From positions 1,705,654 through 1,745,653 of the forward strand of contig NZ_CP007201.1 of the NCBI RefSeq assembly GCF_000568815.1: a DNA stretch of 40,000 bases, in the 5' to 3' direction. The first letter of the stretch is position 1; every line of letters starts with the position of its first letter. The notes beneath the pieces are model-generated. The model did not search any database. It saw only the letters and a program-made list of their open reading frames with translations, and was not told the DNA's origin. The stretch is from Sulfurospirillum multivorans DSM 12446 (GTDB taxonomy: Bacteria > Campylobacterota > Campylobacteria > Campylobacterales > Sulfurospirillaceae). The translations under genes were made by a program, and so were the position numbers. This document shows positions 1 through 33,998 of this stretch, piece by piece.

Positions 1-1
1 T

Positions 2-1099: not shown

Positions 1100-3159
1100 A
1101 GAACAATCAAAAAAAGGTCATTTCTGCATCATTAATGGCTATATTTTGTTTCAATATGCTGATTGCAGATGAAGCATCAATTATTTCAAGGGATAGTTGG
1201 ACATTCAATGAGGTAAATGCTACGGCCTCTGGTGTACCATCAAATCTTAAATTTTTTAAATATTACGACATGTTGCCAGACCAAATTGTTCTACCTATAG
1301 TCAGTAATCGAGATTTAGCTGAACATGAAGGGAAAAATATTTTTATTGGCTATGGCGTTGCAGATCCAAAAGGCGAAGATTGTCGTGTATTTGAAGCAAG
1401 TATTACTGGCTTAGCCAATGATATCAAGGTTTGTTTGCCATGGTGGCGCATTGAAAGAGAATATGAGAAACAAGTTCTCCCAGTCAGTGATGTATTAGGC
1501 TTATTATGTTCGCTACCTACTCCAAAGCCTCCTATCACGGTTAATGTTTGCAAGCAATGGTCATCTGATCTCACTATTAGTACGGGCGGTGGGAAAGTTA
1601 CATGTACAAGCTATTACGATAAATTAGCAGGAGGAGGATGTTGGAGCAACCCTTCTTCCGCTGAATGTTTTGTGAATAATTGCTCACAATACACGCAAGA
1701 GCATTGTGCTCAAGAAGGTGCAAATATGGGTGATGTAACAGAGCTAATTGGTGCCCGTATTGAAAGTACAAATACCTACCAATCAATCGCCACAAAAGTT
1801 AATCTTGTTACCTATCAGTATAAATGTCCAGCAGGAATATTTATACCAAATACAAATTGTGTAGAAGAAGAATCTGTTTTAATGTACCCATACGAGTGTA
1901 AAGCAGATGATCCCAATACAACCACAAATGAAGAGGAATACACATACTGTGATGAATCCAAGGCGCAATACGACGCAAATGGCAAAGTAATTGGTTTCCT
2001 TGGTACATGTAGTGATGGTAAAGCAATTCTTTGTGAAGTAAACAAATTCGCAGCAACTGAGCGACAATGTACGCAAGATATTACACAAAATTATACAAAC
2101 TTAAATTACACACAAGAAGTGAATTATAGAAATTTTGAGGAGTATGAAGTTGCTGTATTATCAGGAGAACCTGACATATATTCTGAAAAAGAGAACTGCC
2201 TTAGAATTAACACTATTGAAGATGCTAGAGACCAACTAATCTATGCAACCATTCAAGGCAACGGTGGCATAGATGATGATATCTATGTTTTAAAACATAA
2301 CCAAGATGGAACTCATTACAAAATATATTGCAACATGCAACACTCATGGAATAATGGGTCAAAAAAAAGTTATAACAACAATATTTTGCAATGTATTGGA
2401 AATAATGGAAATTACTCTTTTAAAGAAAATATCTCGATCGAACCTACAACAATCGTTTCTATTCAGCAAAATACTGAAGCTGAGGACTCATCTCCTTCCC
2501 ATTTTTATGCTCGAATGCACTATGGAGCCACTGAAGTCAAAATAGATGGTACCGTAGCCGCTCCTTCAACTTTTCATGGTCCGATCGGATTTAATGGCTA
2601 TCCTGGAGGCGCAGGAAACACAGGGTATCCACATTGGAATGGAAAAGGACTTCTGAATCTTTGGGATAATTCCACAGCTACTCTTTCTATCATGTTTCCA
2701 TATGCAGGTGCTTACCAATTATTTTTCTATGATAAGAATGGAAATGAAGTTGTTACCCATACCGTTGATACAAGCGACTTTTTAGAGATGGACGGCTCCT
2801 TTATTCAACTAACCAACTTGGGAAGCAAAATGAAATACCGCTCTGATTTTAAATCTGATAGCGATGATGCTTGTCTCAAAGATGATTTTTTAGAAATTGG
2901 AGGAGGTGTTTGGGGTGGAAGAGATTCCAAAACTGGAACAAAAACATGCCAGAATGCCCCTACATCGAACGATTATATTAAAGAGCATGCTATCTATAGC
3001 ATCCTTGTTGTTGACTTGTTGACGGGCAATACAACGCCTATAGAGATGGTTTATCCTTTGGCATATATCAACCGTGTTTTTGTTTCAAAATTAAAAATTT
3101 ACGAAAAAAGAAAATATCGATGTTATAAACCATTCGCGGAGGTTAAAGTTGCTCAATAA
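1084..3159 (+). CDS. Large Cys-rich secreted protein (691 aa), unknown function, co-operonic with the TraN-like gene
   Basis: Long ORF with an N-terminal hydrophobic signal-like segment (VISASLMAIFCFNMLIA) and many Cys. It overlaps both neighbours, which suggests translational coupling. Confidence 0.7.
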   Translation: MPSQLKNNQKKVISASLMAIFCFNMLIADEASIISRDSWTFNEVNATASGVPSNLKFFKYYDMLPDQIVLPIVSNRDLAEHEGKNIFIGYGVADPKGEDCRVFEASITGLANDIKVCLPWWRIEREYEKQVLPVSDVLGLLCSLPTPKPPITVNVCKQWSSDLTISTGGGKVTCTSYYDKLAGGGCWSNPSSAECFVNNCSQYTQEHCAQEGANMGDVTELIGARIESTNTYQSIATKVNLVTYQYKCPAGIFIPNTNCVEEESVLMYPYECKADDPNTTTNEEEYTYCDESKAQYDANGKVIGFLGTCSDGKAILCEVNKFAATERQCTQDITQNYTNLNYTQEVNYRNFEEYEVAVLSGEPDIYSEKENCLRINTIEDARDQLIYATIQGNGGIDDDIYVLKHNQDGTHYKIYCNMQHSWNNGSKKSYNNNILQCIGNNGNYSFKENISIEPTTIVSIQQNTEAEDSSPSHFYARMHYGATEVKIDGTVAAPSTFHGPIGFNGYPGGAGNTGYPHWNGKGLLNLWDNSTATLSIMFPYAGAYQLFFYDKNGNEVVTHTVDTSDFLEMDGSFIQLTNLGSKMKYRSDFKSDSDDACLKDDFLEIGGGVWGGRDSKTGTKTCQNAPTSNDYIKEHAIYSILVVDLLTGNTTPIEMVYPLAYINRVFVSKLKIYEKRKYRCYKPFAEVKVAQ

Positions 3160-5689: not shown

Positions 5690-5737
5690 TTTTAAGAATA
5701 AAATAGTGTAAAATATGAAAAATTTATGGAGTGAAAA

Positions 5738-6073
5738 ATGGTAAATCACAAAAATACAATATTTTTTCTGTTGATGGCATTAACATGTTTTATAACAGGA
5801 TGCACCACAAAATCAAAGGTTGTGGATGGACAGAGGTATACGCAAACATTTGGTTCTAATGAATGGCAGTATGCAGGCGAAGCGAAACCTGTGGAGAATA
5901 ATTCTTCTAAACCTGAAGAATCAGTTGGATATGTAGCAGGGCAAATTGCCGGTGCCCTCGTTACTACAGGTGCTCATATTATCACTTCACCGATTAGGGC
6001 AGTCGAAACCGTCTCAAAAACTGACTCAAATTCATCAAAAACTACTACAGAAAAAAGTGAGAATTACAAATGA
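5738..6073 (+). CDS. Small lipoprotein
   Basis: RBS GGAG precedes the ATG. Signal peptide with lipobox (LMALTCFITG-C). The stop overlaps the next start (ATGA). Confidence 0.7.
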   Translation: MVNHKNTIFFLLMALTCFITGCTTKSKVVDGQRYTQTFGSNEWQYAGEAKPVENNSSKPEESVGYVAGQIAGALVTTGAHIITSPIRAVETVSKTDSNSSKTTTEKSENYK

Positions 6074-6615
6074 ATCTAAAGAAAATTGCCCTACTCTCGT
6101 CAGCGCTCTTAGCCTCTCTTTCCTTTGCAGAAACAAAAGTTGATTACGTTCTAATTAACCCAGATGATTTGCCAAAAAATCAATACGCATTCACATTCCA
6201 GCTCGAAAGAAATGGAGAGATAATTGCAGGTTCAAGCGTAATTTTTTCTTCAAAAAAACCTTCTTCAATAAAAGGCGGAGGAACTGGCGCAGCAACAAAG
6301 ATGTACTATTACAATTGCACTAATGGGGATAGAGATTCAAAACCCTACAGTCAGACAGTTTTAATTAATGACTACCCAACATTAGAATGTCTTGCTAAAG
6401 ATAATGGTGATGCTACATGTACTGTAAAACTTTATAATGCGAAAGATCAAAATGCCCTTGCTTTTGAGGAGTCAAAAAAGAAAAGTTGCAAAGAAGTTGA
6501 ACCAATTATTCATATTCAAGAATTTACACTGAATTTGAAAGAAACGGATAAAAATGGTGTAAAAGATTTTGGTAATGGCTACAAATTACAATATGCTTAT
6601 GGAGGGGAGCGTTAG
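6070..6615 (+). CDS. Secreted protein (181 aa); last codons replaced by IS256-family insertion
   Basis: Signal peptide MNLKKIALLSSALLASLSFA. The IS left end lies at 6605, so the present C-terminus ..YGGER* is read from IS sequence. Removing the IS and one TSD copy restores ..YGEFK*. Confidence 0.7.
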   Translation: MNLKKIALLSSALLASLSFAETKVDYVLINPDDLPKNQYAFTFQLERNGEIIAGSSVIFSSKKPSSIKGGGTGAATKMYYYNCTNGDRDSKPYSQTVLINDYPTLECLAKDNGDATCTVKLYNAKDQNALAFEESKKKSCKEVEPIIHIQEFTLNLKETDKNGVKDFGNGYKLQYAYGGER

Positions 6616-7915
6616 AAAATCTGTGTCAATCTGGTAGTATTTCAAATACACAAGGATTGAAAGATGGAAATACAGATAGACACAGAGACAATATTACAGC
6701 ACATACGTGAGGGTAAAGCCCTTGGTGGGAAAGATGGAGCACTTGCTCCTCTTATTAAACAACTGACAGAAGCAGCACTCCAAGCAGAGATAGAATCGCA
6801 CCTTACCCAAGATTTGCAAAAGAATCGTAAAAATGGGTTTAGCTCTAAAACAATGAAGAGTGAAGTAGGTAACTTCGAACTCGATGTTCCAAGAGATCGA
6901 ACCGGTACATTCGAGCCTCAAATCGTGAAGAAAAATCAGACCCATATGTCGGATCAAATAGAACAAAAGATACTTTCACTGTATGCTCTTGGGAACAGTT
7001 ATAGCCAAATAGCAGATCATATAGAAGAGATTTATGGAGTGGGCTTCTCTAAAGCCACGATAAGTGCTGTAACGGATAAAATCCTACCGATGTTGCACGA
7101 GTGGCGCATTCGTCCCTTGGATGCACTTTATCCCTTTATTTTCATGGATGCTATTCACTATAAAGTGAAAGAGGAAGGCAAATATATTTCCAAAGCATTT
7201 TATACGGTGCTTGGTGTGAAAACCGATGGTAGAAAAGAGGTTCTAGGACTTTATTTGGGTGAAAATGAGGGAGCGAAGTTTTGGCTACATGTTTTAACTG
7301 ACCTTCAAAACCGTGGGGTTAACGATATTCTTATTGCCTCCGTTGATGGACTTAAAGGCTTTCCTGAGGCTATAAACTCAGTATTTCCTCATACGGAGGT
7401 TCAGTTGTGCATCGTCCATCAAATACGCAATTCCATACGATTTGTAGGTTCACTCCATCAAAAACAATTTGCCAGTGAGCTAAAAGCCGTGTATCAGGCA
7501 TTTTCCAAAGAAGAGGCTGAAAATGAACTGGATAAACTTGAAGAAAAATGGGGTAAAAAATACCCTATCGTCTTTACTTCTTGGCGTAATAAATGGGAAA
7601 ACCTCTCACTCTATTTTCAGTATCCTGAAGATATTAGAAGAGTCATTTATACCACTAATATCATCGAATCAGTGCATCGCCAATTTAGAACCCTCACAAA
7701 GACTAAAGGCGCTTTCCCAAATGATGATAGCTTACTCAAATTATTGTTTATGGGAATCAAAAATGCAGAAAAAAAATGGACAATGCCGATACGAAATTGG
7801 AGTCTAACCCTCTCACAACTCTCGATTCATTTCGAGGGCAGACTCAACAACGCTTTAAATTTATGATACAATTTTAGGAGCTACTGGATGCTGACACAGA
7901 TTTCTGAACACTCCC
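6605..7915 (+). mobile_element. IS256-family insertion sequence (1311 bp) with 8-bp TSD TTATGGAG
   Basis: IRL GGGAGCGTTAGAAAATCTGTGTCA (6605-6628) matches the reverse complement of 7892-7915 (GGGAGTGTTCAGAAATCTGTGTCA) at 20 of 24 positions. Direct repeat TTATGGAG lies at 6597-6604 and 7916-7923. A single mutator-type transposase gene sits inside. Confidence 0.9.
6664..7866 (+). CDS. IS256-family (mutator-type) transposase, 400 aa
   Basis: Characteristic blocks: FPQIVKK-like N-terminus (FEPQIVKKNQ), IFMDAIHYKV, LGLYLGENEGAKFW, ASVDGLKGF, QLCIVHQIRNS, IYTTNIIES. Confidence 0.95.
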   Translation: MEIQIDTETILQHIREGKALGGKDGALAPLIKQLTEAALQAEIESHLTQDLQKNRKNGFSSKTMKSEVGNFELDVPRDRTGTFEPQIVKKNQTHMSDQIEQKILSLYALGNSYSQIADHIEEIYGVGFSKATISAVTDKILPMLHEWRIRPLDALYPFIFMDAIHYKVKEEGKYISKAFYTVLGVKTDGRKEVLGLYLGENEGAKFWLHVLTDLQNRGVNDILIASVDGLKGFPEAINSVFPHTEVQLCIVHQIRNSIRFVGSLHQKQFASELKAVYQAFSKEEAENELDKLEEKWGKKYPIVFTSWRNKWENLSLYFQYPEDIRRVIYTTNIIESVHRQFRTLTKTKGAFPNDDSLLKLLFMGIKNAEKKWTMPIRNWSLTLSQLSIHFEGRLNNALNL

Positions 7916-8198: not shown

Positions 8199-9053
8199 TC
8201 ACTTCGTTTTGTACATCTTTACTTTGTCACCGACATTAAGCGATGAAAACGTTGTATTATCTCCAAGTGGCCACACGGAACCTTCAGCTTCTTTTTCCGC
8301 GCCCATCCCACATTTTTGCTTTTTCACACGTATGAAAAACTTTCCATTGTCAATCTTATAAGTTTCACCAAATACATGGCACTCTATTCCTTTTATATTT
8401 TGAAAGGAAAATTCCATGATCTGCGAAGCTAATTTTTGAGTGTCATAGTTTGTTAGTACAGTTGCCTCCACTGTTTCGGAATCAAAATAATCTCTAAAGG
8501 CATTTTGATCGCCACAGTTAAAGGCTCTTACGGCTTGAACAAATTTGGTATATGTATCTTCTGAACTCTTAAAAGAAGAATATTTCATAGAAATCAAGTA
8601 CCCCCATTCTTGTGTCGTACTAGCTTCTCTGGACTCTTCCACTGTCATCTTTGAAAGGTCATTTGTACAATGCTTCATCATATACAAATCAACCATTGCT
8701 GAAGCCGCGCTAGGTATTGATGCATAAAAAATCACAAGTGTATGGTAAATTGGATCGTCAATATCTACACGAAACGGATAAATCGTGCTCTCTTGAAGCA
8801 TTTTGATAAATGGCTCATCTGAATTTTTAATAAGCTCTTTATCCGCTTCAGATGCTTTACCTTTAGCTAGTCTTTCAACCGCCTCATTGAGGTTTTTCAT
8901 TTCTTGTGTTGGTTTTGATACCTTTTCATCAAGGCCTTTTGCTACTTCTTTAACAAGTGGATTATCCGTTTTGCTTGCCTCAACCGTTGTCTCGCTCGCA
9001 TACAATCCCATAGCCGTAAAAACGGCTACGAGTGTTAAGATTAGTGTTTTCAT
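8199..9053 (-). CDS. Secreted protein (284 aa), last gene of nine-gene operon; combines both shared modules of the operon
   Basis: AGGAG RBS and signal peptide MKTLILTLVAVFTAMGLYA. Its middle resembles the 158-aa protein (DLY..C[ST]N, NCG[DS]..xxRxxF). Its C-terminus (GSVWPLGDN...LNVGDKVKMYK) resembles the C-termini of the 167- and 132-aa proteins. Confidence 0.75.
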   Translation of the reverse strand: MKTLILTLVAVFTAMGLYASETTVEASKTDNPLVKEVAKGLDEKVSKPTQEMKNLNEAVERLAKGKASEADKELIKNSDEPFIKMLQESTIYPFRVDIDDPIYHTLVIFYASIPSAASAMVDLYMMKHCTNDLSKMTVEESREASTTQEWGYLISMKYSSFKSSEDTYTKFVQAVRAFNCGDQNAFRDYFDSETVEATVLTNYDTQKLASQIMEFSFQNIKGIECHVFGETYKIDNGKFFIRVKKQKCGMGAEKEAEGSVWPLGDNTTFSSLNVGDKVKMYKTK

Positions 9054-9062
9054 GGTTTACTC

Positions 9063-9566
9063 CTAATTTTTGGTATTTTTTTGCACTTGTGTCGATGAGC
9101 TAAGTGCTTTTTTTAGTTGGTCACCGTCTTTTGCTTCGCGTTCAGGTTTAAAAACGATTTTAACTTTTGTGCCTACAGTAAGGTTTTTTGCACCAATATT
9201 TCCAAATTCATCATAGAGCCACCCTTCAGTTTCTTTAACGGTGTTATCGCAAGAAAGATTTCTTACTCTCGCTTTAACTCTTATGGAATTTTGATCTTGT
9301 GGTTCAGTCTCCCCATTTAATAATCTTGCTGCTTTTTCATATTTTTGATTGTATGATAAACCATCATCATCTACATTTGTTGCTTCCAGCCCAACGATAC
9401 ATTGCTTATTGTTGATTTGAGCTTCAACAAAAATAGGTACTGTATTAGTTTTGCCGAGTTCTTTAAAATCAGCACCATATTTGACTGTACCGTCTACGAA
9501 CATTTCGCTTGCGAGGGCAAGAGTACTGGTTAGGACTAAAATTGAGAGTAAAATGACTTTTTTCAT
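9063..9566 (-). CDS. Secreted protein (167 aa), paralog of 11526..11924
   Basis: Signal peptide MKKVILLSILVLTSTLALA with GAAGGA RBS. Shares VDGTVKYG, VPIFVE and TEGWLYDEFGNIG..LTVGTKVKIVFKPE with the 132-aa protein. Confidence 0.8.
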   Translation of the reverse strand: MKKVILLSILVLTSTLALASEMFVDGTVKYGADFKELGKTNTVPIFVEAQINNKQCIVGLEATNVDDDGLSYNQKYEKAARLLNGETEPQDQNSIRVKARVRNLSCDNTVKETEGWLYDEFGNIGAKNLTVGTKVKIVFKPEREAKDGDQLKKALSSSTQVQKNTKN

Positions 9567-9643
9567 AGTTTTTCCTTCATAAATTTAATTTTGATTGACC
9601 ACTAATTGGCAACACCTTTTCTGTTAGAAAATTAACTTTCTTA

Positions 9644-9934
9644 TTACATGCTCATTTTTGCGATATACCCTATACCAAAAACAAATAGAGGCTTGGCTGT
9701 AATCTCTAAAATGGTATCAAGAATAGTGTTGTTGATAAAACCATCTTCTCCTAAAGAAGAGCATTTATTGACAGTAACTTTTTCTTCAAAAAAGAATAAA
9801 GAGATCATATACAGACCAAGCACCTGAAAAAATGATAGGTTTGGTCCAAGAACACCAGCACCAAACCAACCCCATAAAAGCCAAATAACCAAACCATTAC
9901 ACAATGCCTTCAGAATAAATTTAATTGTTTCCAC
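9644..9934 (-). CDS. Small integral membrane protein (96 aa)
   Basis: GTG start. Hydrophobic helices (LVIWLLWGWFGAGVLG, VLGLYMISLFFF, PLFVFGIGYIA). Lies in the operon 9 nt after the upstream stop. Confidence 0.6.
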   Translation of the reverse strand: METIKFILKALCNGLVIWLLWGWFGAGVLGPNLSFFQVLGLYMISLFFFEEKVTVNKCSSLGEDGFINNTILDTILEITAKPLFVFGIGYIAKMSM

Positions 9935-9943
9935 TCGATTACC

Positions 9944-10420
9944 CTACTTGATTAACTCGATAAAATTCCCACGTACATCATCTTCCGAACCACAGTTGGC
10001 AATTCTCTCAGCAACGATGATTGCTCTGTATGCTAATTTAGCATCAGCATTCGTATCAGCTTGCGCTCTTAGACGTGTTAAGATTGTTGACTTGTAACTA
10101 TTCGCTCTCGTGTTATTATAATTATGATGCCATTCGTTCACATTGTTATACTCATTTGAGCATGTTGTAGCCCAATATAAGTCGCTGAATACTGGGAAAA
10201 TACCGGCTAGACTATCATTGTTACCACTACTGTAGGCAAGTCCTGTTAAGATTCCAGCATCAAATTCAGTTGCTTTATCCAAACTCATCGGTGACATCGT
10301 TTTAAATGTCTTGATTTTTTCAAGAGTCTCAGGTGCAAAATTTTGGGTACCGAGTTTCTCTGTCGCGAACGATAGGGTTGATACAAGAGCTAATACTCCA
10401 ACGATTAGTGCTTTTTTCAT
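9944..10420 (-). CDS. Secreted protein (158 aa), shares a module with the 284-aa protein
   Basis: Signal peptide MKKALIVGVLALVSTLSFA. Its start overlaps the upstream stop by 4 nt. Carries motifs DLYWATTCSNE and IANCGSEDDVRGNF. Confidence 0.75.
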   Translation of the reverse strand: MKKALIVGVLALVSTLSFATEKLGTQNFAPETLEKIKTFKTMSPMSLDKATEFDAGILTGLAYSSGNNDSLAGIFPVFSDLYWATTCSNEYNNVNEWHHNYNNTRANSYKSTILTRLRAQADTNADAKLAYRAIIVAERIANCGSEDDVRGNFIELIK

Positions 10421-10917
10421 AAAATACCCTTATTTTCATTTTCAAGATAGCGTTCTAGATCATCTATGCTTTGACATGTAATGATCACCCCTTGGTGATC
10501 TTTTTTTAGTGTTGTATGGAAGATTGTTCTAATAGCCTCATTTTCAAGAACGTAAGATGTTTCATCAATCATCAGAACGGCTCCTTTATCCAGTATTACT
10601 TCGATTTGCTCAAGCACTTTTTCTGATACTTCCTCGCAATAGGACTGTACAATTAAAGCATCATCACATTTATTTTCGATGAACATAGCCTCAAAATCTC
10701 GTGAAGACTGTAAAGGTCTTCTCATCGGATTCTCAAGAAAAGTTCCTGCATCATGAAATGTAGTAATCAAGACAAATGCTGTACCCTCAGCATGAAGCTT
10801 TAAAGCTATTTTTTCCAACTGTACGGTTTTGCCACTACCCATATGCCCTTCTAAAACAGTTTTATCATGTAGTTGAAATTTAACATCGTGATCATGAGTT
10901 ACCATTTTTATAATCAT
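10417..10917 (-). CDS. Small P-loop NTPase (166 aa)
   Basis: Walker A GHMGSGKT and Walker B-like AVLMIDETS. Overlaps both neighbours. An alternative start, MVTH, lies at 10905. Confidence 0.75.
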   Translation of the reverse strand: MIIKMVTHDHDVKFQLHDKTVLEGHMGSGKTVQLEKIALKLHAEGTAFVLITTFHDAGTFLENPMRRPLQSSRDFEAMFIENKCDDALIVQSYCEEVSEKVLEQIEVILDKGAVLMIDETSYVLENEAIRTIFHTTLKKDHQGVIITCQSIDDLERYLENENKGIL

Positions 10918-11515
10918 TTTCTATCCTTTTATTTGATTTTGTTTTCTTATCTATTGGTTTAATATCTGGCGCTTTTTTATCAAATGTAAATTTTGATAAC
11001 TTAAAAGCAGTAACATCTTTTTTAAGATTCATACTTTTAGCCTCTAGCTCAAGACAAATCACATGATCAGCACCTTTGAAAAAGTTATATGCCTCTTCAC
11101 ATGAAGCAAAATCTTTTACATTGCGTGCAATTTGAAGACGAATGCTCTTACCTGGAATAGGAAAGCTAATAAACCAACCTGCTATTGTCAGGCTATATGC
11201 CTCTGCAATTTCCAAGCTTTTTCCAACAAAAAGTTCATTTTCTACCTTTGCTAAATTACCATGTGATTCTTTCGCAATCGCACGAAGTAAATTTTTCGCA
11301 AAAATAGTGATCCCCGTGCCAACATTACCTATAATTACGATATCGCTCTTTTGCCCCATTGTTGCGTCTGGTGCTTTCGCGTAGGCACATATTCGTTTTG
11401 AAAGTTCATTACATATCTCATTTGCAAATGAATCTTTATTTTCAACAATTGGGCACAATTTAGTATTATGATCAGACCAAATGGCAACAAGTTGGTTCAC
11501 ATCAATTCTTTCCAT
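10892..11515 (-). CDS. P-loop-like protein with degenerate Walker A (208 aa from MERIDV start)
   Basis: GNVGTGIT sits where GxxGxGKT is expected (Lys replaced by Ile). I chose ATG 11513-11515 because it follows AAAGGAAAAAGC and lies 10 nt after the upstream stop. The track ORF extends to 11605 and would overlap the upstream gene. Confidence 0.65.
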   Translation of the reverse strand: MERIDVNQLVAIWSDHNTKLCPIVENKDSFANEICNELSKRICAYAKAPDATMGQKSDIVIIGNVGTGITIFAKNLLRAIAKESHGNLAKVENELFVGKSLEIAEAYSLTIAGWFISFPIPGKSIRLQIARNVKDFASCEEAYNFFKGADHVICLELEAKSMNLKKDVTAFKLSKFTFDKKAPDIKPIDKKTKSNKRIENDYKNGNS

Positions 11516-11525
11516 GCTTTTTCCT

Positions 11526-11924
11526 TTATTTGAATGTATAAATTGAATTATTGTCAGGCTTAAACGCCACCTTAACTTTTGTACCGGAGAGCATTTGCAG
11601 TACACCTAAATTCCCATTTTCATCAAAGACCCAACCAGTCTCAATTTTTGGCTTTTCTCCTTCACATATAATAGAATCAACTTTTGCTAAATCACGAGAC
11701 ATACTAATAAGCCCATAACGTTCAACTTGTGCAAGCACTAAACAAGATTTACCATCACGAACAACATCGATCATAACTGGCACAGATTCAGGATGTTTTG
11801 TGTCAAGTTGAAGCCCTATCATTGCAGTGTTTACTCCAAGTCGAACTGTACCGTTGACAACAATCTCTTCACCGGCAAACAAAGCATTTATCATTAGAAA
11901 GGTGATAAAGAAAAGGCTTTTCAT
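11526..11924 (-). CDS. Secreted protein (132 aa), paralog of 9063..9566
   Basis: Signal peptide MKSLFFITFLMINALFA and ATGA overlap with the upstream gene. C-terminus is ETGWVFDENGNLG..LSGTKVKVAFKPD. Confidence 0.8.
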   Translation of the reverse strand: MKSLFFITFLMINALFAGEEIVVNGTVRLGVNTAMIGLQLDTKHPESVPVMIDVVRDGKSCLVLAQVERYGLISMSRDLAKVDSIICEGEKPKIETGWVFDENGNLGVLQMLSGTKVKVAFKPDNNSIYTFK

Positions 11925-12250
11925 TTCGGCTCCTCAATTTTTTTACACTCAGGCCAACTGATTGAAAAAGCTACATCATCAGTTACGATCAATTCATCCT
12001 TGATGGTATACCCTTGAATAATCTTTCCTTGGCACATAAGAGGTTTGCTGAGTGCTATTTCTTTTTTTAACTTAAGTGTTTCTTCGCTAACAACACCGAT
12101 ATAAAGCGCAACTACACAACATAAAGTTACAAATAATGCTTTAGGGAATGTTGCCTCCCACCCATTTTTTGCAATTAACATCATGAATACTGGAAATAAA
12201 AGAAAAAGAGGATAATAAAAGTGACTATGCGTTAAGATGTCTATAAGCAT
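11921..12250 (-). CDS. Small membrane protein (109 aa)
   Basis: Two hydrophobic helices (YYPLFLLFPVFMMLIA, ALFVTLCCVVALYIGVV). Overlaps the upstream gene by 10 nt. Confidence 0.65.
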   Translation of the reverse strand: MLIDILTHSHFYYPLFLLFPVFMMLIAKNGWEATFPKALFVTLCCVVALYIGVVSEETLKLKKEIALSKPLMCQGKIIQGYTIKDELIVTDDVAFSISWPECKKIEEPK

Positions 12251-13209
12251 GTACTCTCCTTTGTAAGTTTAACCACGCAACTACAATCAACGATACGAGG
12301 ATCTAGGATTTCAAATTCGGCTTCAGTGCATATTTCAAATGGCTTCATCCCAAAGGCACGAGATTTTTGAAAAAGCTCTACTTTATCCACCAATGCAAAC
12401 GTATCCAAGATAGTTGCATATTCTTTTCTTAAAGCAACAATGACATCCTGTTCGGCAACAATAATCAGAGGCATGGAAGCTTTTTTATCTTCGTGATAGT
12501 TCTGAAGTAATGTCGTTGCTTCTTTTAATGATGTGTCATGGTTGTTTTCTTCAGGAACCTCATTACTCATATTCTCAACTTCTTTTCTAAGTATTTCCAT
12601 AAGCGGAAATGCATCGTTCATGATTTTCAATTTCTTTTCATCGATGCTGATCGTATCTTCAATACAATTTGGCGAAAGAAATTCGCCGATTTCATTAAAA
12701 TCTTCTTTGGTAAATTGCGATAGATCAACACCTCTTAAGGACAATGCCGCTTTTAAATAACTGGTTGTACGTTCAATTTTAGATAACGGAGAGTTTAGAT
12801 CTACAACCATAAAAAATCCGAATTTTTTCATCGTTCGTAAAAAGTTGACGCTCTCATCAGCATTAAATCTTCTTTTATCGTTTAATGCCCATAAAAGTTC
12901 GCATGTAAGTTTTTTACCCAAAACTTTACTTGTACCTAACACCATAGTATCTAACTCCTCACAACGGTCTACAAAAAAAAGAAAGGATATGGCAAAAGAT
13001 AAAATAAGGATAATGCCAAATAATGGCGATGTAAGAAATGCTTCAGTAGTCATATTAATAACTACTTCACCTTCATAAAGAGACACATACAATAGAATGC
13101 CTGGTATCATAATAAGCATCTTAATAAAGATTTTCATGTAATTTACGGCACCTTGTACCACGTACCAAAGCCCTTTAAGAGCTAATTTCATATAACGCTT
13201 AAACATCAC
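12241..13209 (-). CDS. Membrane-anchored protein with large soluble domain (322 aa), first gene of the operon
   Basis: GTG/ATG start at 13209/13206. N-terminal helices (IKMLIMIPGILLYVSL, LFGIILILSFAISFLFFV) are followed by about 240 aa of soluble sequence. I recognised no motif. Confidence 0.7.
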   Translation of the reverse strand: MMFKRYMKLALKGLWYVVQGAVNYMKIFIKMLIMIPGILLYVSLYEGEVVINMTTEAFLTSPLFGIILILSFAISFLFFVDRCEELDTMVLGTSKVLGKKLTCELLWALNDKRRFNADESVNFLRTMKKFGFFMVVDLNSPLSKIERTTSYLKAALSLRGVDLSQFTKEDFNEIGEFLSPNCIEDTISIDEKKLKIMNDAFPLMEILRKEVENMSNEVPEENNHDTSLKEATTLLQNYHEDKKASMPLIIVAEQDVIVALRKEYATILDTFALVDKVELFQKSRAFGMKPFEICTEAEFEILDPRIVDCSCVVKLTKESTCL

Positions 13210-13302
13210 TTTCCTTTATTTTGTTTTTTAACATTTCTTGCGCTTCCGTCATCATTGTTTTGCTCCAGTAAATTTTTTGTATTTATGCGTAAAATCTGTA
13301 AT

Positions 13303-13533
13303 TTACTCGTTTGTTGTCAAACTTTGAAGCTCTGGCACAGTTACTTCTTTGTAATAGTGATTAATTGCCAAAGAAATGATTTTTGAGACAATTTCAGGTT
13401 TTTTCCCATCGAAACCTTTTAAAGGTGCGATTACATTAATTTTTTTCATAATGTCATCGCTTAGTGCAATTCTTATCGAAGTAGATTTATCTTCATCAAC
13501 TCCATCTTGTCTTATAGTATTTTCTTCAGCCAT
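13303..13533 (-). CDS. Small ribbon-helix-helix-like DNA-binding protein (76 aa)
   Basis: Pattern of a strand (SIRIALSDD) followed by two helices (IMKKINVI, EIVSKIISLAINHYYKE), typical of CopG/Arc-type folds. Lies upstream of the operon and divergent from the xerD-like gene. Fold assignment is by eye only. Confidence 0.5.
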   Translation of the reverse strand: MAEENTIRQDGVDEDKSTSIRIALSDDIMKKINVIAPLKGFDGKKPEIVSKIISLAINHYYKEVTVPELQSLTTNE

Positions 13534-13645
13534 TTTAAATTTCTCCTTTTTTGTAAAATTATTCTAAAATTATAGCATTTAATGTGAATAAATCAATAGT
13601 TCTAATATAAACGATATTTTATTCATTTTTATAATATAAACTATT

Positions 13646-13759
13646 GCTATACTTCATTATATTTGTTATAATTTTGGCGTTTTAAGAAAATGATTTGTAT
13701 CTAAATACAAGTTATTTGAAATTTGCAATACGACATTATGTAATATAATGAAGTATTGC
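13646..13759. promoter_or_regulatory. 18-bp inverted repeat pair in the divergent intergenic region
   Basis: GCTATACTTCATTATATT (13646-13663) matches the reverse complement of 13742-13759 (GCAATACTTCATTATATT) at 17 of 18 positions. The palindrome TTGTAT-ctaa-ATACAA lies between them. Confidence 0.5.
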
Positions 13760-13797
13760 CAAGGCTTCAGAAGAATAAATGCAACGAGGGCTAGAAA

Positions 13798-14745
13798 ATG
13801 AATCAAGAATTATCTGAAAAACTATTATCTTTTTTAAATAACTATGAAAAAAAGCTAAAACATGAAAATAAATCAATTAATACTATAAATAGCTATAAAA
13901 ACACATTAAATCAATTTATTTCATATATATCGTTTATTAGAGACGAAATAAAGCTCGAAACACTAAAACCATCACTAATTTATGGTTTTTTTGATTACAA
14001 AGAAAATTTACTAAAAAAGCAAGGTTCTTTAAAAACTGGAACAAAAAAAGTAGTAACAGCACATTTAAAAACATTTTTCACATTTATTGAGGTCGAGGAT
14101 GATAATTTGTTGGATTTTTCAAAATTATTCAAAGGACTTAAATTCAAGACGGAAAAGAGGGTTCCCCCTAGTCTTGATAAAAATACAAAACAACTCTTAT
14201 TAAATGAGATAGAGAAGAAAATCCTTGAGAAAAATGATTATGTTGCATTCAGGGATTCATTAATGCTCAAACTTATGATATTTGCTGGGTTGAGAATTTC
14301 GGAAGTATTGAAATTAAAATATAAAGCATTTGTTGAAGAGGATGAAAATATTTATAGTTTTTTGGTCATTGGAAAAGGCAACAAAGAAAGGATCACGTAC
14401 ATTGAAAAAGACTTAATTGAAGATGAATTATCTGAACTTCTTTTAATAAAAAAGCCCGATGACTTTCTATGCACCAGTAAAAACAATAAGATTGTACCGA
14501 GACAAAATGTTGACAAAATACTCCGAGCATTTTGTAAACGAGCCAATATTACTCCAACAAGTGCACACAAACTGAGACATACATTTGCCAACAATTTTAC
14601 CAATGAACATGGAGGGAATATTGTGCATCTACAAGATTTGCTTGGGCATGGTGATATTAGAACAACTATGATCTATGTCAACCCTCGACAAGAGGATGTA
14701 AAAAGAGGATTCATACAAGCTTTTAAATTAAATCAGTCAATGTAA
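13798..14745 (+). CDS. XerC/XerD-type tyrosine recombinase (315 aa)
   Basis: AGLRISEVLKL (Arg box), HKLRHTFANNF (H-x-x-R), LLGHGDIRTTMIYVN (His and catalytic Tyr). Confidence 0.9.
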   Translation: MNQELSEKLLSFLNNYEKKLKHENKSINTINSYKNTLNQFISYISFIRDEIKLETLKPSLIYGFFDYKENLLKKQGSLKTGTKKVVTAHLKTFFTFIEVEDDNLLDFSKLFKGLKFKTEKRVPPSLDKNTKQLLLNEIEKKILEKNDYVAFRDSLMLKLMIFAGLRISEVLKLKYKAFVEEDENIYSFLVIGKGNKERITYIEKDLIEDELSELLLIKKPDDFLCTSKNNKIVPRQNVDKILRAFCKRANITPTSAHKLRHTFANNFTNEHGGNIVHLQDLLGHGDIRTTMIYVNPRQEDVKRGFIQAFKLNQSM

Positions 14746-21000: not shown

Positions 21001-21063
21001 CGATATTATGTAGCACGCGCACAAGACTTTTAGTCTGATTTCTCGTTAGACTTTCACTTAAAA
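21001..21063 (+). repeat. Left terminal inverted repeat
   Basis: CGATATTATGTAGCACGCGCACAAGACTTTTAGTCTGATTTCTCGTTAGACTTTCACTTAAAA. Contains an internal AGTCT..AGACT stem. Confidence 0.9.
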
Positions 21064-24172: not shown

Positions 24173-24181
24173 GGATAGATT

Positions 24182-33812: not shown

Positions 33813-33998
33813 GCAATACTCCAATGTTTTATAAAAGTATTGTAGTATTTGATTACACAAATGTCAAGTTTTTTGTGTAAACTTGTATGTAATTTCCTAA
33901 ATTTTAGTTGCATCCCCTTGATTCACATCACCCACAATATCACCTTGATATGCTAATATCCTGCTTTAAAAAGTATCTTCTTTAGTTAGGGTTTTTGT

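What the first reader, a model, noticed from the sequence alone, without database searches (positions are those of the whole stretch)
8199..13533. Nine-gene, tightly coupled envelope operon of unrecognisable function next to the transfer genes
Seen:
- Nine minus-strand genes run from 13209 to 8199. Most junctions are overlaps of 4-26 nt or gaps of 9-10 nt (the single exception is a 77-nt gap before 9063..9566), and most genes have good RBSs.
- A small RHH-like gene (13303-13533) precedes them.
- Gene order: membrane-anchored 322 aa; 2-TM 109 aa; secreted 132 aa; degenerate P-loop 208 aa; P-loop 166 aa; secreted 158 aa; 3-TM 96 aa; secreted 167 aa; secreted 284 aa.
- I recognise none of these as T4SS, T2SS/Tad, ABC transporter, flagellar, or any known defence-system component.

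Inference: four periplasmic or secreted proteins, three membrane proteins and a cytoplasmic NTPase pair suggest a dedicated envelope-spanning machine. It could serve surface or entry exclusion, be an accessory mating structure, act as a phage barrier, or secrete something. It is carried as cargo between the tra operon and a XerD-like recombinase. This is the best candidate in the window for an undescribed multi-component system.
Basis: partly seen in the sequence, partly recalled or inferred. Interest (0 to 1): 0.75.

Follow-up and report, generated by a model that had tools for sequence, protein, structure and literature searches.

The report
Accessory periplasmic genes of conjugative element
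The nine tightly packed genes are real, but they are not a fixed machine: they combine a conserved trio of exported proteins, some folded like the barrel of a conjugation-pore protein, with swappable extra genes, at the end of an F-type conjugative element in Sulfurospirillum multivorans.

Summary
Nine coupled minus-strand genes (13209..8199) follow a small gene (13533..13303), with the junctions as described, and all are under purifying selection (dN/dS 0.13-0.58). The window is Sulfurospirillum multivorans chromosome.

The block lies between a tyrosine recombinase and an F-type transfer operon (TraH, TrbB/DsbG-like, TraW, TraU, TrbC, TraN-like).

The nine genes are not conserved as a unit. 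In ten related metagenomic loci only the exported core recurs: g3/g8-type proteins, g6 and g9. By contrast g1, g2, g4 and g5 each occur in 3 of 11 loci and g7 in 2 of 11. They sit in a slot that holds unrelated genes elsewhere.

An AlphaFold model of g3 (core pLDDT above 90) matches only VirB10/TraB C-terminal barrels of type IV secretion core complexes. It lacks the membrane anchor and the outer-membrane antenna. g8 and the C-terminus of g9 share this domain.

- g5 is an intact but unclassifiable P-loop NTPase.
- g4 has lost the Walker lysine.

Most likely this is a lineage-specific periplasmic accessory module of the element's conjugation apparatus plus variable cargo, not a self-contained envelope-spanning machine. 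An exclusion or decoy role is not excluded. I rate it a new variant of a known kind, of moderate interest.

The parts
13303..13533 (-). g0: 76-aa first gene of the operon, a putative small DNA-binding regulator or excision factor (RHH-like pattern only).
   Evidence: ORF. Orthologues sit next to the integrase in L003, L022 and L023 at 54-78% identity. dN/dS is 0.16-0.28. No profile match.
13561..13596 (-). Promoter-like site for g0 and the block: TTGATT, 16 nt, TGcTATAAT (extended -10).
   Evidence: Consensus scan. Both hexamers are conserved in four loci. Function not tested.
13646..13759 (.). 18-nt inverted repeat (13646-13663 / 13742-13759, 78 nt apart) in the integrase-g0 intergenic region. 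It may be an operator or a recombinase-binding site.
   Evidence: 94% complementary. One arm and its flank are invariant in four loci, including one whose integrase is only 59% identical. Role not tested.
12241..13209 (-). g1: 322-aa protein with an N-terminal two-segment membrane module and a roughly 240-aa soluble domain. Facultative.
   Evidence: Hydropathy. Homologues only in L011 (36%) and L021 (49%). Its N-terminal module resembles that of P0019, where it is fused to a g5-like ATPase (blastp E 1.4e-5 in a four-sequence search). No PDB or Pfam match.
11921..12250 (-). g2: 109-aa small membrane protein with two hydrophobic segments and a Cys-containing tail. Facultative; usually paired with g3.
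   Evidence: Orthologues in L023/L024 (68%) and a fragment in L019. dN/dS 0.13.
11526..11924 (-). g3: 132-aa Sec-exported protein. It is a minimal VirB10/TraB-type beta-barrel with no anchor and no antenna. Member of the B family.
   Evidence: Paralogue of g8 (E 4e-14). AF2 model has mean pLDDT 77.6, core above 90, all-beta. The seven best Foldseek PDB hits are all VirB10-type barrels (TMq 0.43-0.60, prob 0.99-1.00). In BFVD, the only match with a compact superposition (TMq 0.48) is annotated VirB10; it ranks 37th, with E 1.6 and prob 0.63. hhalign to F TraB gives E 8.9e-4, the best of 59 comparisons.
10892..11515 (-). g4: 207-aa cytoplasmic protein with a degenerate Walker A motif (GxVGxGxT, no Lys), probably a pseudo-NTPase. 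Facultative.
   Evidence: Alignment with L014 (62%) and L013 (51%) homologues. Present in 3 of 11 loci. Only Walker-A-region similarity to F TraC. No PDB or Pfam hit.
10417..10917 (-). g5: 166-aa soluble P-loop NTPase with intact Walker A, Walker B and an invariant Gln149. Class unassigned. Facultative.
   Evidence: Motifs conserved in 7 sequences. Only 2 clusters among 5.8 billion proteins and 5 hits among 1.84 billion representatives. All Pfam, PDB and PADLOC hits are sub-threshold or confined to the P-loop region. The AF2 model is unusable (pLDDT 49.7).
9944..10420 (-). g6: 158-aa Sec-exported protein with one conserved Cys pair. Part of the conserved core. Fold unknown.
   Evidence: Present in 10 of 11 loci. 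A paralogue follows a DsbG_N-domain gene in L011. dN/dS 0.13-0.20. No PDB, Pfam or F-Tra similarity.
9644..9934 (-). g7: 96-aa small hydrophobic membrane protein. It is an inserted cassette, which explains the 77-nt gap.
   Evidence: Present only in the window and L011 (68%). DNA homology to L003/L014 breaks at about 9945 and resumes at about 9577.
9063..9566 (-). g8: 167-aa Sec-exported B-family protein (VirB10/TraB-barrel-like with an inserted loop and a basic tail).
   Evidence: In 8 of 11 loci. dN/dS 0.13-0.23. UniRef labels it DUF5666, but Pfam gives no such hit for any of 16 family members.
8199..9053 (-). g9: 284-aa Sec-exported core protein. It has a highly conserved charged N-terminal region, a middle region with one Cys pair, and a C-terminal domain with a second Cys pair, homologous to the C-terminal half of the B family.
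   Evidence: Alignment. hhalign to the B family gives E 7.8e-6, prob 84%. A 129-aa family bridges the two. Present in 9 of the 10 loci that reach this position.
13798..14745 (+). Tyrosine recombinase (315 aa), divergent from g0. Conserved partner of the block.
   Evidence: Pfam Phage_integrase 2.7e-26. Orthologues adjacent to g0 in L003 (98%), L023 (64%) and L022 (59%).
6664..7866 (+). Mutator/IS256-family transposase inserted between the tra operon and g9. Not part of the module.
   Evidence: Pfam Transposase_mut 2.1e-103. Absent at this position in L023 and L014, where g9 directly faces the 181-aa gene.
1..6615 (+). Distal end of the F-type transfer operon: tail of an 833-aa gene, a 691-aa gene, an 846-aa TraN-like gene, a 111-aa lipoprotein and a 181-aa exported protein.
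   Evidence: TraN C-terminal match (Pfam 6.9e-5 at cut-off, NCBIfam 5.7e-8). Upstream, outside the window, lie TraH, a DsbG/TrbB-like gene, TraW, TraU and TrbC.

Best explanation
The block is the distal accessory region of a chromosomally integrated, very divergent F-type conjugative element of Sulfurospirillum multivorans. It has two layers.

(1) A conserved core of Sec-exported, disulfide-bonded periplasmic proteins: g3 and g8, g6 and g9. g3, g8 and the C-terminus of g9 are stand-alone copies of the beta-barrel that forms the central cone of type IV secretion outer-membrane core complexes (VirB10/TraB). They lack the inner-membrane anchor, the proline-rich linker and the outer-membrane antenna.

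Inferred mechanism: after export and disulfide formation, these soluble barrels dock in the periplasm onto the element's own core complex. The tra operon encodes a DsbG/TrbB-like isomerase that could assist the disulfide step. The docking targets would be the TraB/TraV/TraK equivalents. There the barrels would add to or stabilise the complex, or tune its symmetry or gating. g6 and the conserved N-terminal region of g9 would act as partner or adaptor parts.

(2) A variable slot between the regulator g0 and the core. In this genome it holds g1, g2, g4 and g5, and g7 is inserted further down. These genes are facultative add-ons, exchanged between elements. They are not subunits of an obligate nine-part machine. 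g5 is probably an active NTPase that works at the membrane with the g1-type membrane module. g4 is probably a catalytically dead relative of a P-loop protein.

Shown: gene structure, purifying selection, export signals, fold match, synteny with F-type tra genes, and the mosaic gene content. Inferred: the binding partner, and whether the effect on transfer is positive or negative.
For: - Source and context. The window is S. multivorans chromosome. The neighbouring operon encodes TraH, a DsbG/TrbB-like protein, TraW, TraU, TrbC and a TraN-like protein.
- Synteny. In 5 of the 6 loci whose contig extends beyond the core, tra-type genes are adjacent: TraN-like, 691/181-aa homologues or TraT.
- Composition. 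Across 11 loci the B family is in 11/11, g6 in 10/11 and g9 in 9/10. g1, g2, g4 and g5 are each in 3/11 and g7 in 2/11. Unrelated genes fill the slot in L003, L022 and L014.
- Fold. The g3 model has mean pLDDT 77.6 with core blocks at 89-95. The seven best PDB matches are all VirB10-type barrels: F/pED208 TraB, R388 TrwE, X. citri VirB10 and Dot/Icm DotG (prob 0.99-1.00, TMq up to 0.60). CagX/CagY chains follow at ranks 10-11; the other later hits have prob below 0.2. The PDB sequence under 7spc and four sister entries that matches F TraB is deposited as TraB. In BFVD the only match with a compact superposition (TMq 0.48) is also annotated VirB10, but it ranks 37th, with E 1.6 and prob 0.63.
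- Sequence. The B-family profile against F TraB gives hhalign E 8.9e-4, aligning C-x-V-G-L-E-A and R-x3-R-x-R-N-[IL]-S-C in the barrel. This is the best of 34 F Tra proteins and 25 decoys; the next best scores are 0.011 and 0.078, both in signal peptides.
- Domain sharing. The g9 C-terminus matches the B family at E 7.8e-6, with a bridging family.
- Export. The exported proteins have even Cys counts. A thiol-disulfide isomerase gene lies in the tra operon and precedes a g6 paralogue in L011.
- Selection. dN/dS is 0.13-0.34 for the core genes.
- Literature. PMC8770708 shows that 17 TraB barrels form the central cone, that TraV binds laterally across three barrels, and that unidentified plasmid-encoded factors stabilise the F core complex.
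Against: - Sequence homology to TraB is marginal: hhalign prob 23%, Bonferroni-adjusted about 0.05. Pairwise Smith-Waterman against shuffles gives z about 1, and HMMER against the F Tra proteins gives nothing.
- No Pfam TrbI or NCBIfam hit for any of 16 family members.
- g6 and most of g9 have no structural or sequence assignment.
- The block has its own promoter and regulator. It converges on the tra operon in the window, L014 and L023, which fits independently regulated cargo or exclusion genes as well as it fits structural accessories.
- The element's own traB, traK and traV lie outside the sequence I could reach, so no interaction could be modelled.
- Related backbones L016 and L017 lack the core genes in the stretch seen.
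Confidence: 0.4

Rival explanations
1. Exclusion or interference module. The soluble, antenna-less TraB-type barrels (g3, g8, g9) act as decoys in the periplasm of a cell that already carries the element. They would bind incoming or co-resident core-complex parts (TraV/TraK/TraB of the same or competing elements) and block productive pore assembly. This would be entry exclusion or fertility inhibition. The small membrane proteins g2 and g7 could act like TraS.
For: - The block is transcribed from its own conserved promoter with a small regulator next to the integrase, not from within the tra operon.
- In L011 and L013 the same gene families lie just downstream of a TraT (surface exclusion) homologue. 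In L016, L017 and L018 the g5-like gene occupies that spot.
- There are two to four diverged B-family paralogues per locus, and gene turnover is rapid, as expected for specificity determinants under conflict.
- The barrels lack exactly the parts needed to build a channel, namely the anchor and the antenna.
Against: - Known exclusion proteins (TraS, TraT, TrbK, Eex; my knowledge of the literature) are single small membrane or lipoproteins. None is a VirB10-like barrel.
- dN/dS of 0.13-0.34 shows ordinary purifying selection, not diversifying selection.
- The window itself has no TraT next to the block.
- There is no experimental or interaction evidence.
Confidence: 0.22
2. All nine products assemble into one dedicated, previously undescribed envelope-spanning machine. 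It would be powered by the g4/g5 NTPase pair and would be independent of the conjugation apparatus (secretion, phage barrier and so on).
For: - Tight translational coupling of all nine genes.
- A mix of cytoplasmic, membrane and periplasmic products.
- The g1-type membrane module is fused to a g5-type ATPase in P0019, linking two of the parts.
- No known system is recognised by four profile libraries.
Against: - No other locus has all nine genes. g5 and g4 are each in 3 of 11 loci and co-occur only in the window. L023 works with g2, g3, g6 and g9 alone.
- g4 lacks the catalytic lysine.
- g7 is an inserted cassette.
- g5-like genes occur alone next to TraT, without any core gene.
- The exported core has a T4SS fold and T4SS neighbours.
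Confidence: 0.08
3. Unrelated cargo. The variable-slot genes (g1, g2, g4, g5), and perhaps the core too, would be a defence, abortive-infection or envelope-homeostasis cargo carried at a hotspot of the element. They would have no role in conjugation. The VirB10-like fold would then be a reused small barrel.
For: - The slot between g0 and the core carries unrelated cargo in other elements: Band_7/SPFH in L022, and a Cys-rich/Ser-rich membrane protein in L003.
- g5 has a weak PADLOC hit to mad8 (2.7e-6, P-loop region only) and nSTAND-type hits.
- A TonB-dependent receptor follows g9 in L011 and L020.
- The wider window is rich in defence-like and mobile genes.
Against: - No PADLOC, Pfam or NCBIfam family reaches its threshold.
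- The core is conserved across elements while the cargo varies, and it is syntenic with tra genes.
- The fold search returns only T4SS barrels with high probability.
Confidence: 0.15
4. Remnant of an integrated filamentous phage (inovirus). g5 would be the Zot/pI-type morphogenesis ATPase and the small exported or membrane proteins would be coat proteins.
For: - Many short coupled genes with signal peptides or membrane segments, next to a tyrosine recombinase and a small regulator.
- g5 gives a weak Pfam Zot alignment over most of its length (E 0.012).
- YopX is present on the L003 contig.
Against: - The Zot score of 15.5 bits is below the 20.3 cut-off, and other generic P-loop families score better.
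- g5 lacks the membrane segment and periplasmic domain of pI and is absent from 8 of 11 loci.
- There is no Rep, no ssDNA-binding protein and no recognisable coat gene. No PHROG hit is significant.
- No relative was found in 2.9 million viral contigs.
- The exported proteins fold like T4SS barrels, and the BFVD search gives no convincing match to a phage protein.
Confidence: 0.02

Closest known systems
VirB10/TraB/TrwE/DotG C-terminal beta-barrel of type IV secretion outer-membrane core complexes (Pfam TrbI, PF03743)
   Same: The predicted fold of g3 is the same barrel, and by homology so are g8 and the g9 C-terminus. The seven best PDB matches are VirB10-type barrels (CagX/CagY chains follow at ranks 10-11), and in BFVD a VirB10-annotated protein gives the only compact superposition, at a non-significant E-value. 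Motif-level similarity to F TraB lies in the barrel. The proteins are periplasmic and are encoded in an F-type conjugative element.
   Different: The proteins have about 110 mature residues instead of 400-500. There is no N-terminal cytoplasmic or transmembrane anchor, no proline-rich linker and no alpha-helical antenna. No TrbI profile match was found. There are several paralogues per locus. They are encoded outside the core tra gene order, in an operon headed by a small regulator next to an integrase.
Small lineage-specific accessory Trb/Tra proteins of F-like plasmids (TrbB, TrbI, TrbE, TrbA, TrbJ, TrbF, TraP, TraQ), interspersed with essential genes in the F tra operon
   Same: Both are short, tightly coupled genes for periplasmic or inner-membrane proteins of poorly conserved sequence, carried in the distal tra region (F map). 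A DsbC/TrbB-like isomerase is present in this element too. PMC8770708 reports that unidentified plasmid factors stabilise the F core complex.
   Different: No profile or hhalign similarity links any block protein to any F accessory protein. Here the genes form a separate, convergently oriented operon with its own regulator.
Exclusion genes traS/traT of F-like plasmids
   Same: The position is similar: the distal tra region, and directly after a TraT homologue in L011, L013, L016 and L017. Content varies between related elements, and the products are directed to the envelope.
   Different: TraS and TraT are single proteins of the inner membrane and outer-membrane lipoprotein type. No block protein matches either. 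No lipobox is present in g3, g6, g8 or g9.
Duplicated or truncated T4SS scaffold paralogues: the Rickettsiales vir homologue system (from my own knowledge), and SGI1 TraN/TraH/TraG substitutes that reshape the IncC mating apparatus (PMC5389848, title and abstract seen)
   Same: The idea is the same: extra, diverged or truncated copies of T4SS structural proteins modulate or remodel a conjugation or secretion apparatus.
   Different: Those paralogues are recognisable by sequence and mostly keep full domain architecture. Here only the bare barrel is kept, and the families are otherwise unknown.
Zot/pI morphogenesis ATPase of inoviruses
   Same: g5 is a small P-loop NTPase set among short membrane and secreted genes next to a recombinase. 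It gives a weak Zot alignment.
   Different: The score is below the family threshold. g5 has no membrane or periplasmic part, no phage genes accompany it, it is facultative, and it has no viral relatives.

Membership tests
VirB10/TraB (TrbI) family - for g3, g8 and the g9 C-terminus | C-terminal beta-barrel fold of the core-complex cone | tested here: met
   The AF2 model of g3 has a core pLDDT above 90. The top seven Foldseek PDB hits are all VirB10-type barrels, prob 0.99-1.00, TMq up to 0.60. In BFVD the best structural overlap (TMq 0.48) is with a VirB10-annotated protein, but at rank 37, E 1.6, prob 0.63.
VirB10/TraB (TrbI) family - for g3, g8 and the g9 C-terminus | Match to the family profile (Pfam TrbI / NCBIfam TraB-VirB10 models) | tested here: not met
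   No hit for g3 or g8 at E up to 0.1. No hit for any of 16 family members at E up to 1.
VirB10/TraB (TrbI) family - for g3, g8 and the g9 C-terminus | Detectable sequence homology to a bona fide member (F TraB) | tested here: inconclusive
   hhalign gives E 8.9e-4, prob 23%, in the barrel. This is the best of 59 comparisons. Smith-Waterman against shuffles gives z about 1, and HMMER is not significant.
VirB10/TraB (TrbI) family - for g3, g8 and the g9 C-terminus | N-terminal inner-membrane anchor and proline-rich linker spanning the periplasm | tested here: not met
   There is only a cleavable-type Sec signal peptide, and the barrel starts at about residue 20.
VirB10/TraB (TrbI) family - for g3, g8 and the g9 C-terminus | Alpha-helical antenna projection forming the outer-membrane pore | tested here: not met
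   The model contains seven strands and no helix. The protein ends where TraB's antenna would be inserted (alignment). The antenna is described in PMC8770708.
F-type (MPF_F) conjugation system - for the surrounding element | Presence of F-type signature genes (TraH, TraU, TraW, TrbC, TraN, TraF/TrbB-type thioredoxin) | tested here: met
   Found: TraH, TraU, TrbC_Ftype and a thioredoxin-like gene; TraW, TraU, TrbC and a DsbG/TrbB-like gene by NCBIfam, all below the equivalog cut-offs; and a TraN C-terminal match.
F-type (MPF_F) conjugation system - for the nine block genes | Block proteins belong to named Tra/Trb families | tested here: not met
   There are no Pfam or NCBIfam hits. HMMER and hhalign against all 34 F Tra/Trb proteins give only the marginal TraB hit and Walker-A-only hits to TraC and TraD.
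Conserved multi-gene system (operon conserved as a unit) | The same gene set recurs together in independent loci | tested here: not met
   Ten related loci were examined and none has all nine genes. Only the B family, g6 and g9 recur.
Active P-loop NTPase - g5 | Walker A GxxxxGK[ST] and Walker B hhhhDE conserved across the family | tested here: met
   G24, G27, G29, K30, D118, E119 and Q149 are invariant in 7 sequences. The class could not be assigned.
Active P-loop NTPase - g4 | Walker A lysine | tested here: not met
   The motif is GxVGxG[ITS]T in all three homologues, with no Lys.
Inovirus Zot/pI morphogenesis module | Zot family score above cut-off, pI architecture (ATPase, membrane segment, periplasmic domain) and accompanying phage genes | tested here: not met
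   Zot scores 15.5 bits against a cut-off of 20.3. g5 has no hydrophobic segment. No PHROG hit is significant. No relative was found in viral contigs.
Known anti-phage defence systems (PADLOC-DB 2.0) | Significant match of components to a defined system | tested here: not met
   The only hit is g5 against mad8 (2.7e-6, 25 bits, P-loop region). The other eight proteins have no hit apart from one chance-level match of g3 to Cmr3 (E 0.022).
Type IV coupling protein (VirD4/TraD) - for g5 and the P0019 fusion | N-terminal two-segment membrane domain, a roughly 350-aa nucleotide-binding domain and an all-alpha domain; family profile match | tested here: not met
   P0019 has the membrane module plus a roughly 180-aa NTPase and follows TraT, as traD does in F. 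The only profile signals are a P-loop-only TrwB_AAD_bind hit at E 0.0094 in P0021 and a Walker-A-only hhalign hit to TraD.

The most novel reading that the evidence does not exclude
Soluble, antenna-less copies of the VirB10/TraB barrel (g3, g8, g9), together with g6, would be a previously unrecognised class of secreted T4SS modulators. They would insert into or cap the central cone of a core complex. They would act either as a new kind of exclusion or fertility-inhibition decoy against incoming or competing elements, or as a system-specific extra ring of a Campylobacterota F-type machine. The adjacent slot would be a hotspot where elements swap membrane-tethered NTPase cargo.
Probability: 0.2. 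Interest if true: 0.65.

Novelty: new variant of a known kind. Interest (0 to 1): 0.4.

Why it matters
If the fold assignment and the docking model are right, this would be the first case of stand-alone, exported VirB10/TraB barrels encoded as separate small genes beside an F-type system. That would give a handle on two open points.

- The F core complex is stabilised by plasmid-encoded factors that have not been identified (PMC8770708). These proteins are candidates of that kind.
- It is unclear how conjugative elements tune or block each other's pores.

The result is also a caution for genome scans. Tight coupling of nine genes looked like a machine, yet comparison with ten related loci shows a conserved three-family core plus a cargo slot.

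The families are extremely rare. They appear only in S. multivorans and about twenty low-GC metagenomic contigs. No relative was found in the genome set of 185,579 species representatives, where not even the S. multivorans copy was recovered, probably because that stretch is masked. The practical reach is therefore narrow.

Tried and rejected
- **Concatenated query.** I sent all nine proteins as one query to the search for homologous proteins. It returned nothing, not even self-hits. This was a wasted search and is not evidence of absence.
- **Plasmid collection.** There was no DNA match for the block or the tra flank and no tblastn match for g5.
- **Viral contigs with g5.** No relatives.
- **Genome collection.** The scans with the g9 family and the B family found no relatives. 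The window's own genome appears to be masked. A first B-family alignment was too diverse for pattern design.
- **Metagenome scan with g9.** One extra locus only.
- **AlphaFold of g5 with a 2-sequence alignment.** pLDDT 49.7, discarded.
- **g9 middle region against g6.** I suspected homology from a shared Cys-pair pattern. Profile comparison does not support it (prob 3%).
- **UniRef's 'DUF5666' label for g8.** Not reproduced by Pfam for any family member.
- **Motif reading of g5.** I read the h-h-h-x-C-Q-S strand as FtsK/HerA/VirB4-VirD4-like. This is not supported: PDB and F-protein profile searches match only the Walker A region of many P-loop classes.
- **Invertible-promoter or shufflon idea for the integrase-g0 region.** A conserved 18-nt inverted repeat exists. 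No locus shows the segment inverted, and 78 nt is short for inversion. Left as an open note.
- **Inovirus hypothesis.** Rejected; see the rival explanations.
- **A diverse TraB alignment from the plasmid collection.** The 5000-record limit was filled by TraB sequences more than 90% identical to F, so no profile-profile test could be made.
- **Literature.** Searches for the locus tags and for a Sulfurospirillum T4SS or ICE found nothing.

Full report
**1. Observation**

The ORF listing shows the nine minus-strand ORFs and the upstream 76-aa ORF at the stated coordinates. I call them g1 to g9 and g0.

| Gene | Coordinates | Length |
|---|---|---|
| g1 | 13209..12241 | 322 aa |
| g2 | 12250..11921 | 109 aa |
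| g3 | 11924..11526 | 132 aa |
| g4 | 11515..10892 | 207 aa |
| g5 | 10917..10417 | 166 aa |
| g6 | 10420..9944 | 158 aa |
| g7 | 9934..9644 | 96 aa |
| g8 | 9566..9063 | 167 aa |
| g9 | 9053..8199 | 284 aa |
| g0 | 13533..13303 | 76 aa |

- The junctions are overlaps of 10, 4, 26 and 4 nt and gaps of 10, 9, 77 and 9 nt. Every start has an AGGA/GGAG-type ribosome-binding site. Public gene calls on the same DNA agree.
There are four Sec-type signal peptides (g3, g6, g8, g9), and those proteins have even Cys counts. There are hydrophobic segments in g1, g2 and g7, and none in g4 or g5.
- dN/dS against orthologues elsewhere is 0.13-0.58 for all ten genes, so these are real genes.
- Pfam, NCBIfam, PHROGs and PADLOC recognise none of them. 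g5 gets only sub-threshold generic P-loop hits.

**2. Source and surroundings**

g5 is identical to a protein of Sulfurospirillum multivorans (SMUL_1767). The window maps to chromosome CP042966.1.

On one side, divergent from g0, lies a tyrosine recombinase (Pfam 2.7e-26).

On the other side, after an inserted Mutator/IS256-family transposase, lies the end of a transfer operon.
- Inside the window only the 846-aa protein is recognisable, by a TraN C-terminal match.
- The 10 kb upstream of the window carries TraH, a DsbG/DsbC/TrbB-like thiol-disulfide isomerase, TraW, TraU and TrbC.
- TraW, TraU, TrbC and the TraN-like gene follow the F plasmid order; here three unassigned genes lie between TrbC and the TraN-like gene (F map).
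- These family hits are clear but all fall below the equivalog cut-offs. This is a very divergent F-type system.

The rest of the window is a mosaic of IS elements, a second integrase, a Dam-type methyltransferase and other cargo.

**3. Is the block a unit? No.**

The families are extremely rare.
- g5 has two clusters among 5.8 billion proteins and five hits among 1.84 billion representatives searched exhaustively.
- The g3/g8 family has 16 clusters.
- Nothing related was found in the 185,579 species-representative genomes, where even the S. multivorans copy was not recovered (the stretch appears to be masked), in the plasmid collection, or, for g5, in viral contigs.

I retrieved ten related loci from metagenome and SRA assemblies, all with 32-37% GC. 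I classified their genes by BLAST and HMM.

| Locus | Gene order |
|---|---|
| Window | int, g0, g1, g2, g3, g4, g5, g6, g7, g8, g9 |
| L023 | int, g0, g2, g3, g6, g9, then the 181-aa tra-side gene (no IS) |
| L003 | int, g0, three unrelated genes (244, 151, 141 aa), g3 pseudogene, g5, g6, g8, g9 |
| L022 | int, g0, 158 aa, 147 aa, a Band_7 protein, g6, g8, 153 aa, 348 aa |
| L019 | g2 fragment, g3 remnant, g5, g6, g8, g9 |
| L021 | g1, a 129-aa B-like protein, g3, g6, g8, g9 |
| L020 | a 148-aa B-like protein, g6, g8, g9, TonB-dependent receptor |
| L014 | 281 aa, 127 aa, g4, 152 aa, g3, g6, g8, g9, then 181-aa, TraN-like and 691-aa homologues |
| L011 | TraN, TraT, a DsbG_N-domain gene, g6 paralogue, three unrelated genes (237, 235, 414 aa), g1, 129-aa B-like, g3, 173-aa B-like, g6, g7, g9, TonB-dependent receptor |
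| L013 | TraT, g4, 268 aa, g8, g9 |

- L016, L017 and L018 share L013's backbone: 103-aa, about 60-aa and about 70-aa genes, then TraT. After TraT they carry only a g5-like NTPase.
- The constant part is therefore a B-family protein (g3 and/or g8), g6 and g9.
- g1, g2, g4 and g5 are each in 3 of 11 loci, and g7 in 2 of 11.
- The stretch between g0 and the core behaves as a cargo slot.
- g7 is an indel cassette, which explains the odd 77-nt gap.

**4. What the conserved core is**

Relationships within the core:
- g3 and g8 are paralogues (E 4e-14).
- The C-terminal 50-65 residues of g9 are homologous to the C-terminal half of that family (hhalign E 7.8e-6). The 129-aa family bridges the two in HMM searches.
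- g9's middle region is not demonstrably related to g6.

Fold of g3:
- With a 14-sequence alignment AlphaFold gives g3 a confident all-beta core. Mean pLDDT is 77.6, and core blocks score 89-95.
- Foldseek against the PDB returns VirB10-type barrels of T4SS outer-membrane core complexes as its seven best hits. These are F and pED208 TraB, R388 TrwE, X. citri VirB10 and Dot/Icm DotG, at probability 0.99-1.00 and TMq up to 0.60. CagX/CagY chains follow at ranks 10-11 (probability 0.7-0.8); apart from them, later hits drop below 0.2.
- A sequence search with F TraB confirms that 7spc and its sister entries (7spb, 7spi, 7spj, 7spk) contain chains deposited as TraB.
- In the viral structure library, the only match with a compact superposition (TMq 0.48) is also annotated VirB10; it ranks 37th, with E 1.6 and probability 0.63, so it is weak support.

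Targeted sequence test against F TraB:
- The family profile aligns to F TraB residues 259-291 with E 8.9e-4. It matches C-x-V-G-L-E-A and R-x3-R-x-R-N-[IL]-S-C, including both conserved cysteines.
- TraB is the best of 34 F Tra proteins and 25 decoys. The next scores are 0.011 and 0.078, both in signal peptides.
- This evidence is marginal. hhalign probability is 23%. Pairwise alignment is not better than shuffles, and HMMER sees nothing. No TrbI profile hit exists.

I therefore claim fold-level similarity with probable but unproven homology.

Compared with a real VirB10/TraB, the proteins lack three things:
- the inner-membrane anchor
- the proline-rich linker
- the alpha-helical antenna that makes the outer-membrane pore

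PMC8770708 describes the barrel-plus-antenna architecture. It also reports lateral binding of TraV across three barrels, and that unidentified plasmid factors stabilise the F core complex.

A 173-aa exported protein just after TraH in the tra operon shows a weak B-like C-terminal motif (E 0.002).

**5. The facultative genes**

- **g5** keeps Walker A, Walker B and an invariant glutamine in all seven known relatives. Every profile or PDB match is confined to the P-loop, and these matches come from many different NTPase classes. Its class is unassigned. My initial FtsK/HerA/VirD4-like reading is not supported.
- **P0019 and P0020** fuse a g5-like domain to N-terminal hydrophobic segments; P0019's resemble the N-terminus of g1 (E 1.4e-5 for P0019 in a tiny search space, no P0020 hit). 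This hints that g1 and g5 cooperate at the membrane. P0019 follows TraT, the position of traD in F. That is a positional analogy only.
- **g4** has a Walker-A-like motif without the lysine in all three homologues. It is probably inactive.
- **g1's soluble domain, g2 and g7** have no assignable relatives.

**6. Regulation**

- The integrase-g0 intergenic region carries a conserved extended -10 promoter for g0.
- It also carries an 18-nt inverted repeat, one arm of which is invariant across four loci.
- No internal promoter or terminator stands out above shuffled expectation.
- The block is thus most simply one transcription unit headed by g0. It converges on the tra operon here and in L014 and L023, but is co-directional with it in L011.

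**7. Interpretation**

- **Best reading (0.40).** This is the distal accessory region of a divergent F-type integrative conjugative element. A conserved periplasmic core is built around anchor-less, antenna-less TraB-type barrels that act on the element's own core complex. A swappable cargo slot sits beside it.
- **Main rival (0.22).** The same soluble barrels act negatively, as exclusion or fertility-inhibition decoys. Supporting points are the separate promoter, the TraT neighbourhood in other loci, and the several diverged paralogues per locus. Against it, selection is ordinary purifying selection and there is no precedent.
Contradicted by the mosaic gene content.
- **Unrelated cargo or defence (0.15).** Fits the variable slot better than it fits the core.
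- **Inovirus remnant (0.02).** Rejected.

**8. Novelty and score**

- The context is a known kind of system, F-type conjugation.
- The exported stand-alone VirB10/TraB-like barrels, g6 and g9 are undescribed families, and so is this architecture.
- I rate the finding a new variant of a known kind, with interest 0.4.
- It is less than the 'undescribed multi-component system' first proposed. It is still a concrete, testable lead for T4SS structural biology.

Limits:
- There is one structural model only.
- There are no models for g6 or g9.
- The element's own traB, traK and traV were out of reach.

Noticed in passing
window 13534-13797 (inverted repeat 13646-13663 / 13742-13759): The integrase-g0 intergenic region has an 18-nt inverted repeat (94% complementary, 78 nt apart). 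One arm plus its flank (TTATAACAAATATAATGAAGTATAGCAATA) is invariant in four loci, including one whose integrase is only 59% identical. A conserved extended -10 promoter lies next to it. This may be an operator or a recombinase site. No inverted variant was seen.
   Followed up: partly
window ~10400-13250; L003:7854-9646; L022:2928-4798; L014:136-2499: The stretch between g0 and the conserved exported core behaves as a cargo hotspot. Different elements carry quite different genes there: g1/g2/g4/g5 here; a Cys-rich/Ser-rich membrane protein and two others in L003; a Band_7/SPFH protein in L022.
   Followed up: partly
L016:3346-4254 (P0019), P0020, L017:10001-10540 (P0021): g5-like NTPases occur alone directly after a TraT homologue in another plasmid/ICE backbone (with SLT, UvrD, ParB, DUF5131). 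In P0019 and P0020 the domain follows N-terminal hydrophobic segments (g1-like in P0019). This is the position and the crude architecture of a coupling protein, at less than half the size.
   Followed up: partly
L003:9650-9930 and L019:208-375: In two relatives g3 is reduced to a frameshifted or deleted remnant. Only the last nine codons of g4 survive upstream of g5. This shows recent decay of part of the block while g5 through g9 (as far as the contig reaches in L003) stay intact.
   Followed up: yes
L011:12749-14962 and L020:3286-5499: A 737-aa TonB-dependent receptor directly follows g9 in two loci. L020 also carries a TonB gene further on. No counterpart lies next to the block in the window.
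   Followed up: no
L026:379-900 (upstream of the window, just after TraH): A 173-aa exported protein inside the tra operon has a weak B-family-like C-terminal motif (SCKGK...GWIF..NPNYGVL; hhalign E 0.002). It may be a further diverged barrel paralogue.
   Followed up: partly
window 1-5689 and L026:5174-10016: Three consecutive large exported proteins of 793, 833 and 691 aa sit between TrbC and the TraN-like gene in the tra operon. None has a Pfam or NCBIfam match, and the one searched against PDB sequences (691 aa) has no match there either. These are lineage-specific additions to an F-type system.
   Followed up: partly
window 23354-25417: A Dam-like D12 N6-adenine methyltransferase (23354-24172) is followed immediately by a 411-aa DUF6996/DUF6997/DUF7226 protein (24182-25417). 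This may be a restriction-modification or defence pair.
   Followed up: no
window 21852-22868, 32949-33860, 26961-28127, 29930-31423, 31901-32956: The rest of the window holds two IS1595-family transposases, a second tyrosine integrase, a radical SAM/SPASM protein and a P63C-domain protein. It is a heavily rearranged mobile region.
   Followed up: no
window 17028-21024: The public gene calls place three consecutive minus-strand genes here (164, 516 and 634 aa, the last with a Phage_integrase domain). The ORF list splits the last into 254-aa and 387-aa ORFs. This may be a frameshift, or an arrangement like a recombinase trio.
   Followed up: no
window 9063-9566 (g8): UniRef names g8 'DUF5666 domain-containing protein'. 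The current Pfam library gives no DUF5666 hit for g8 or for any of 15 relatives at E up to 1.
   Followed up: yes
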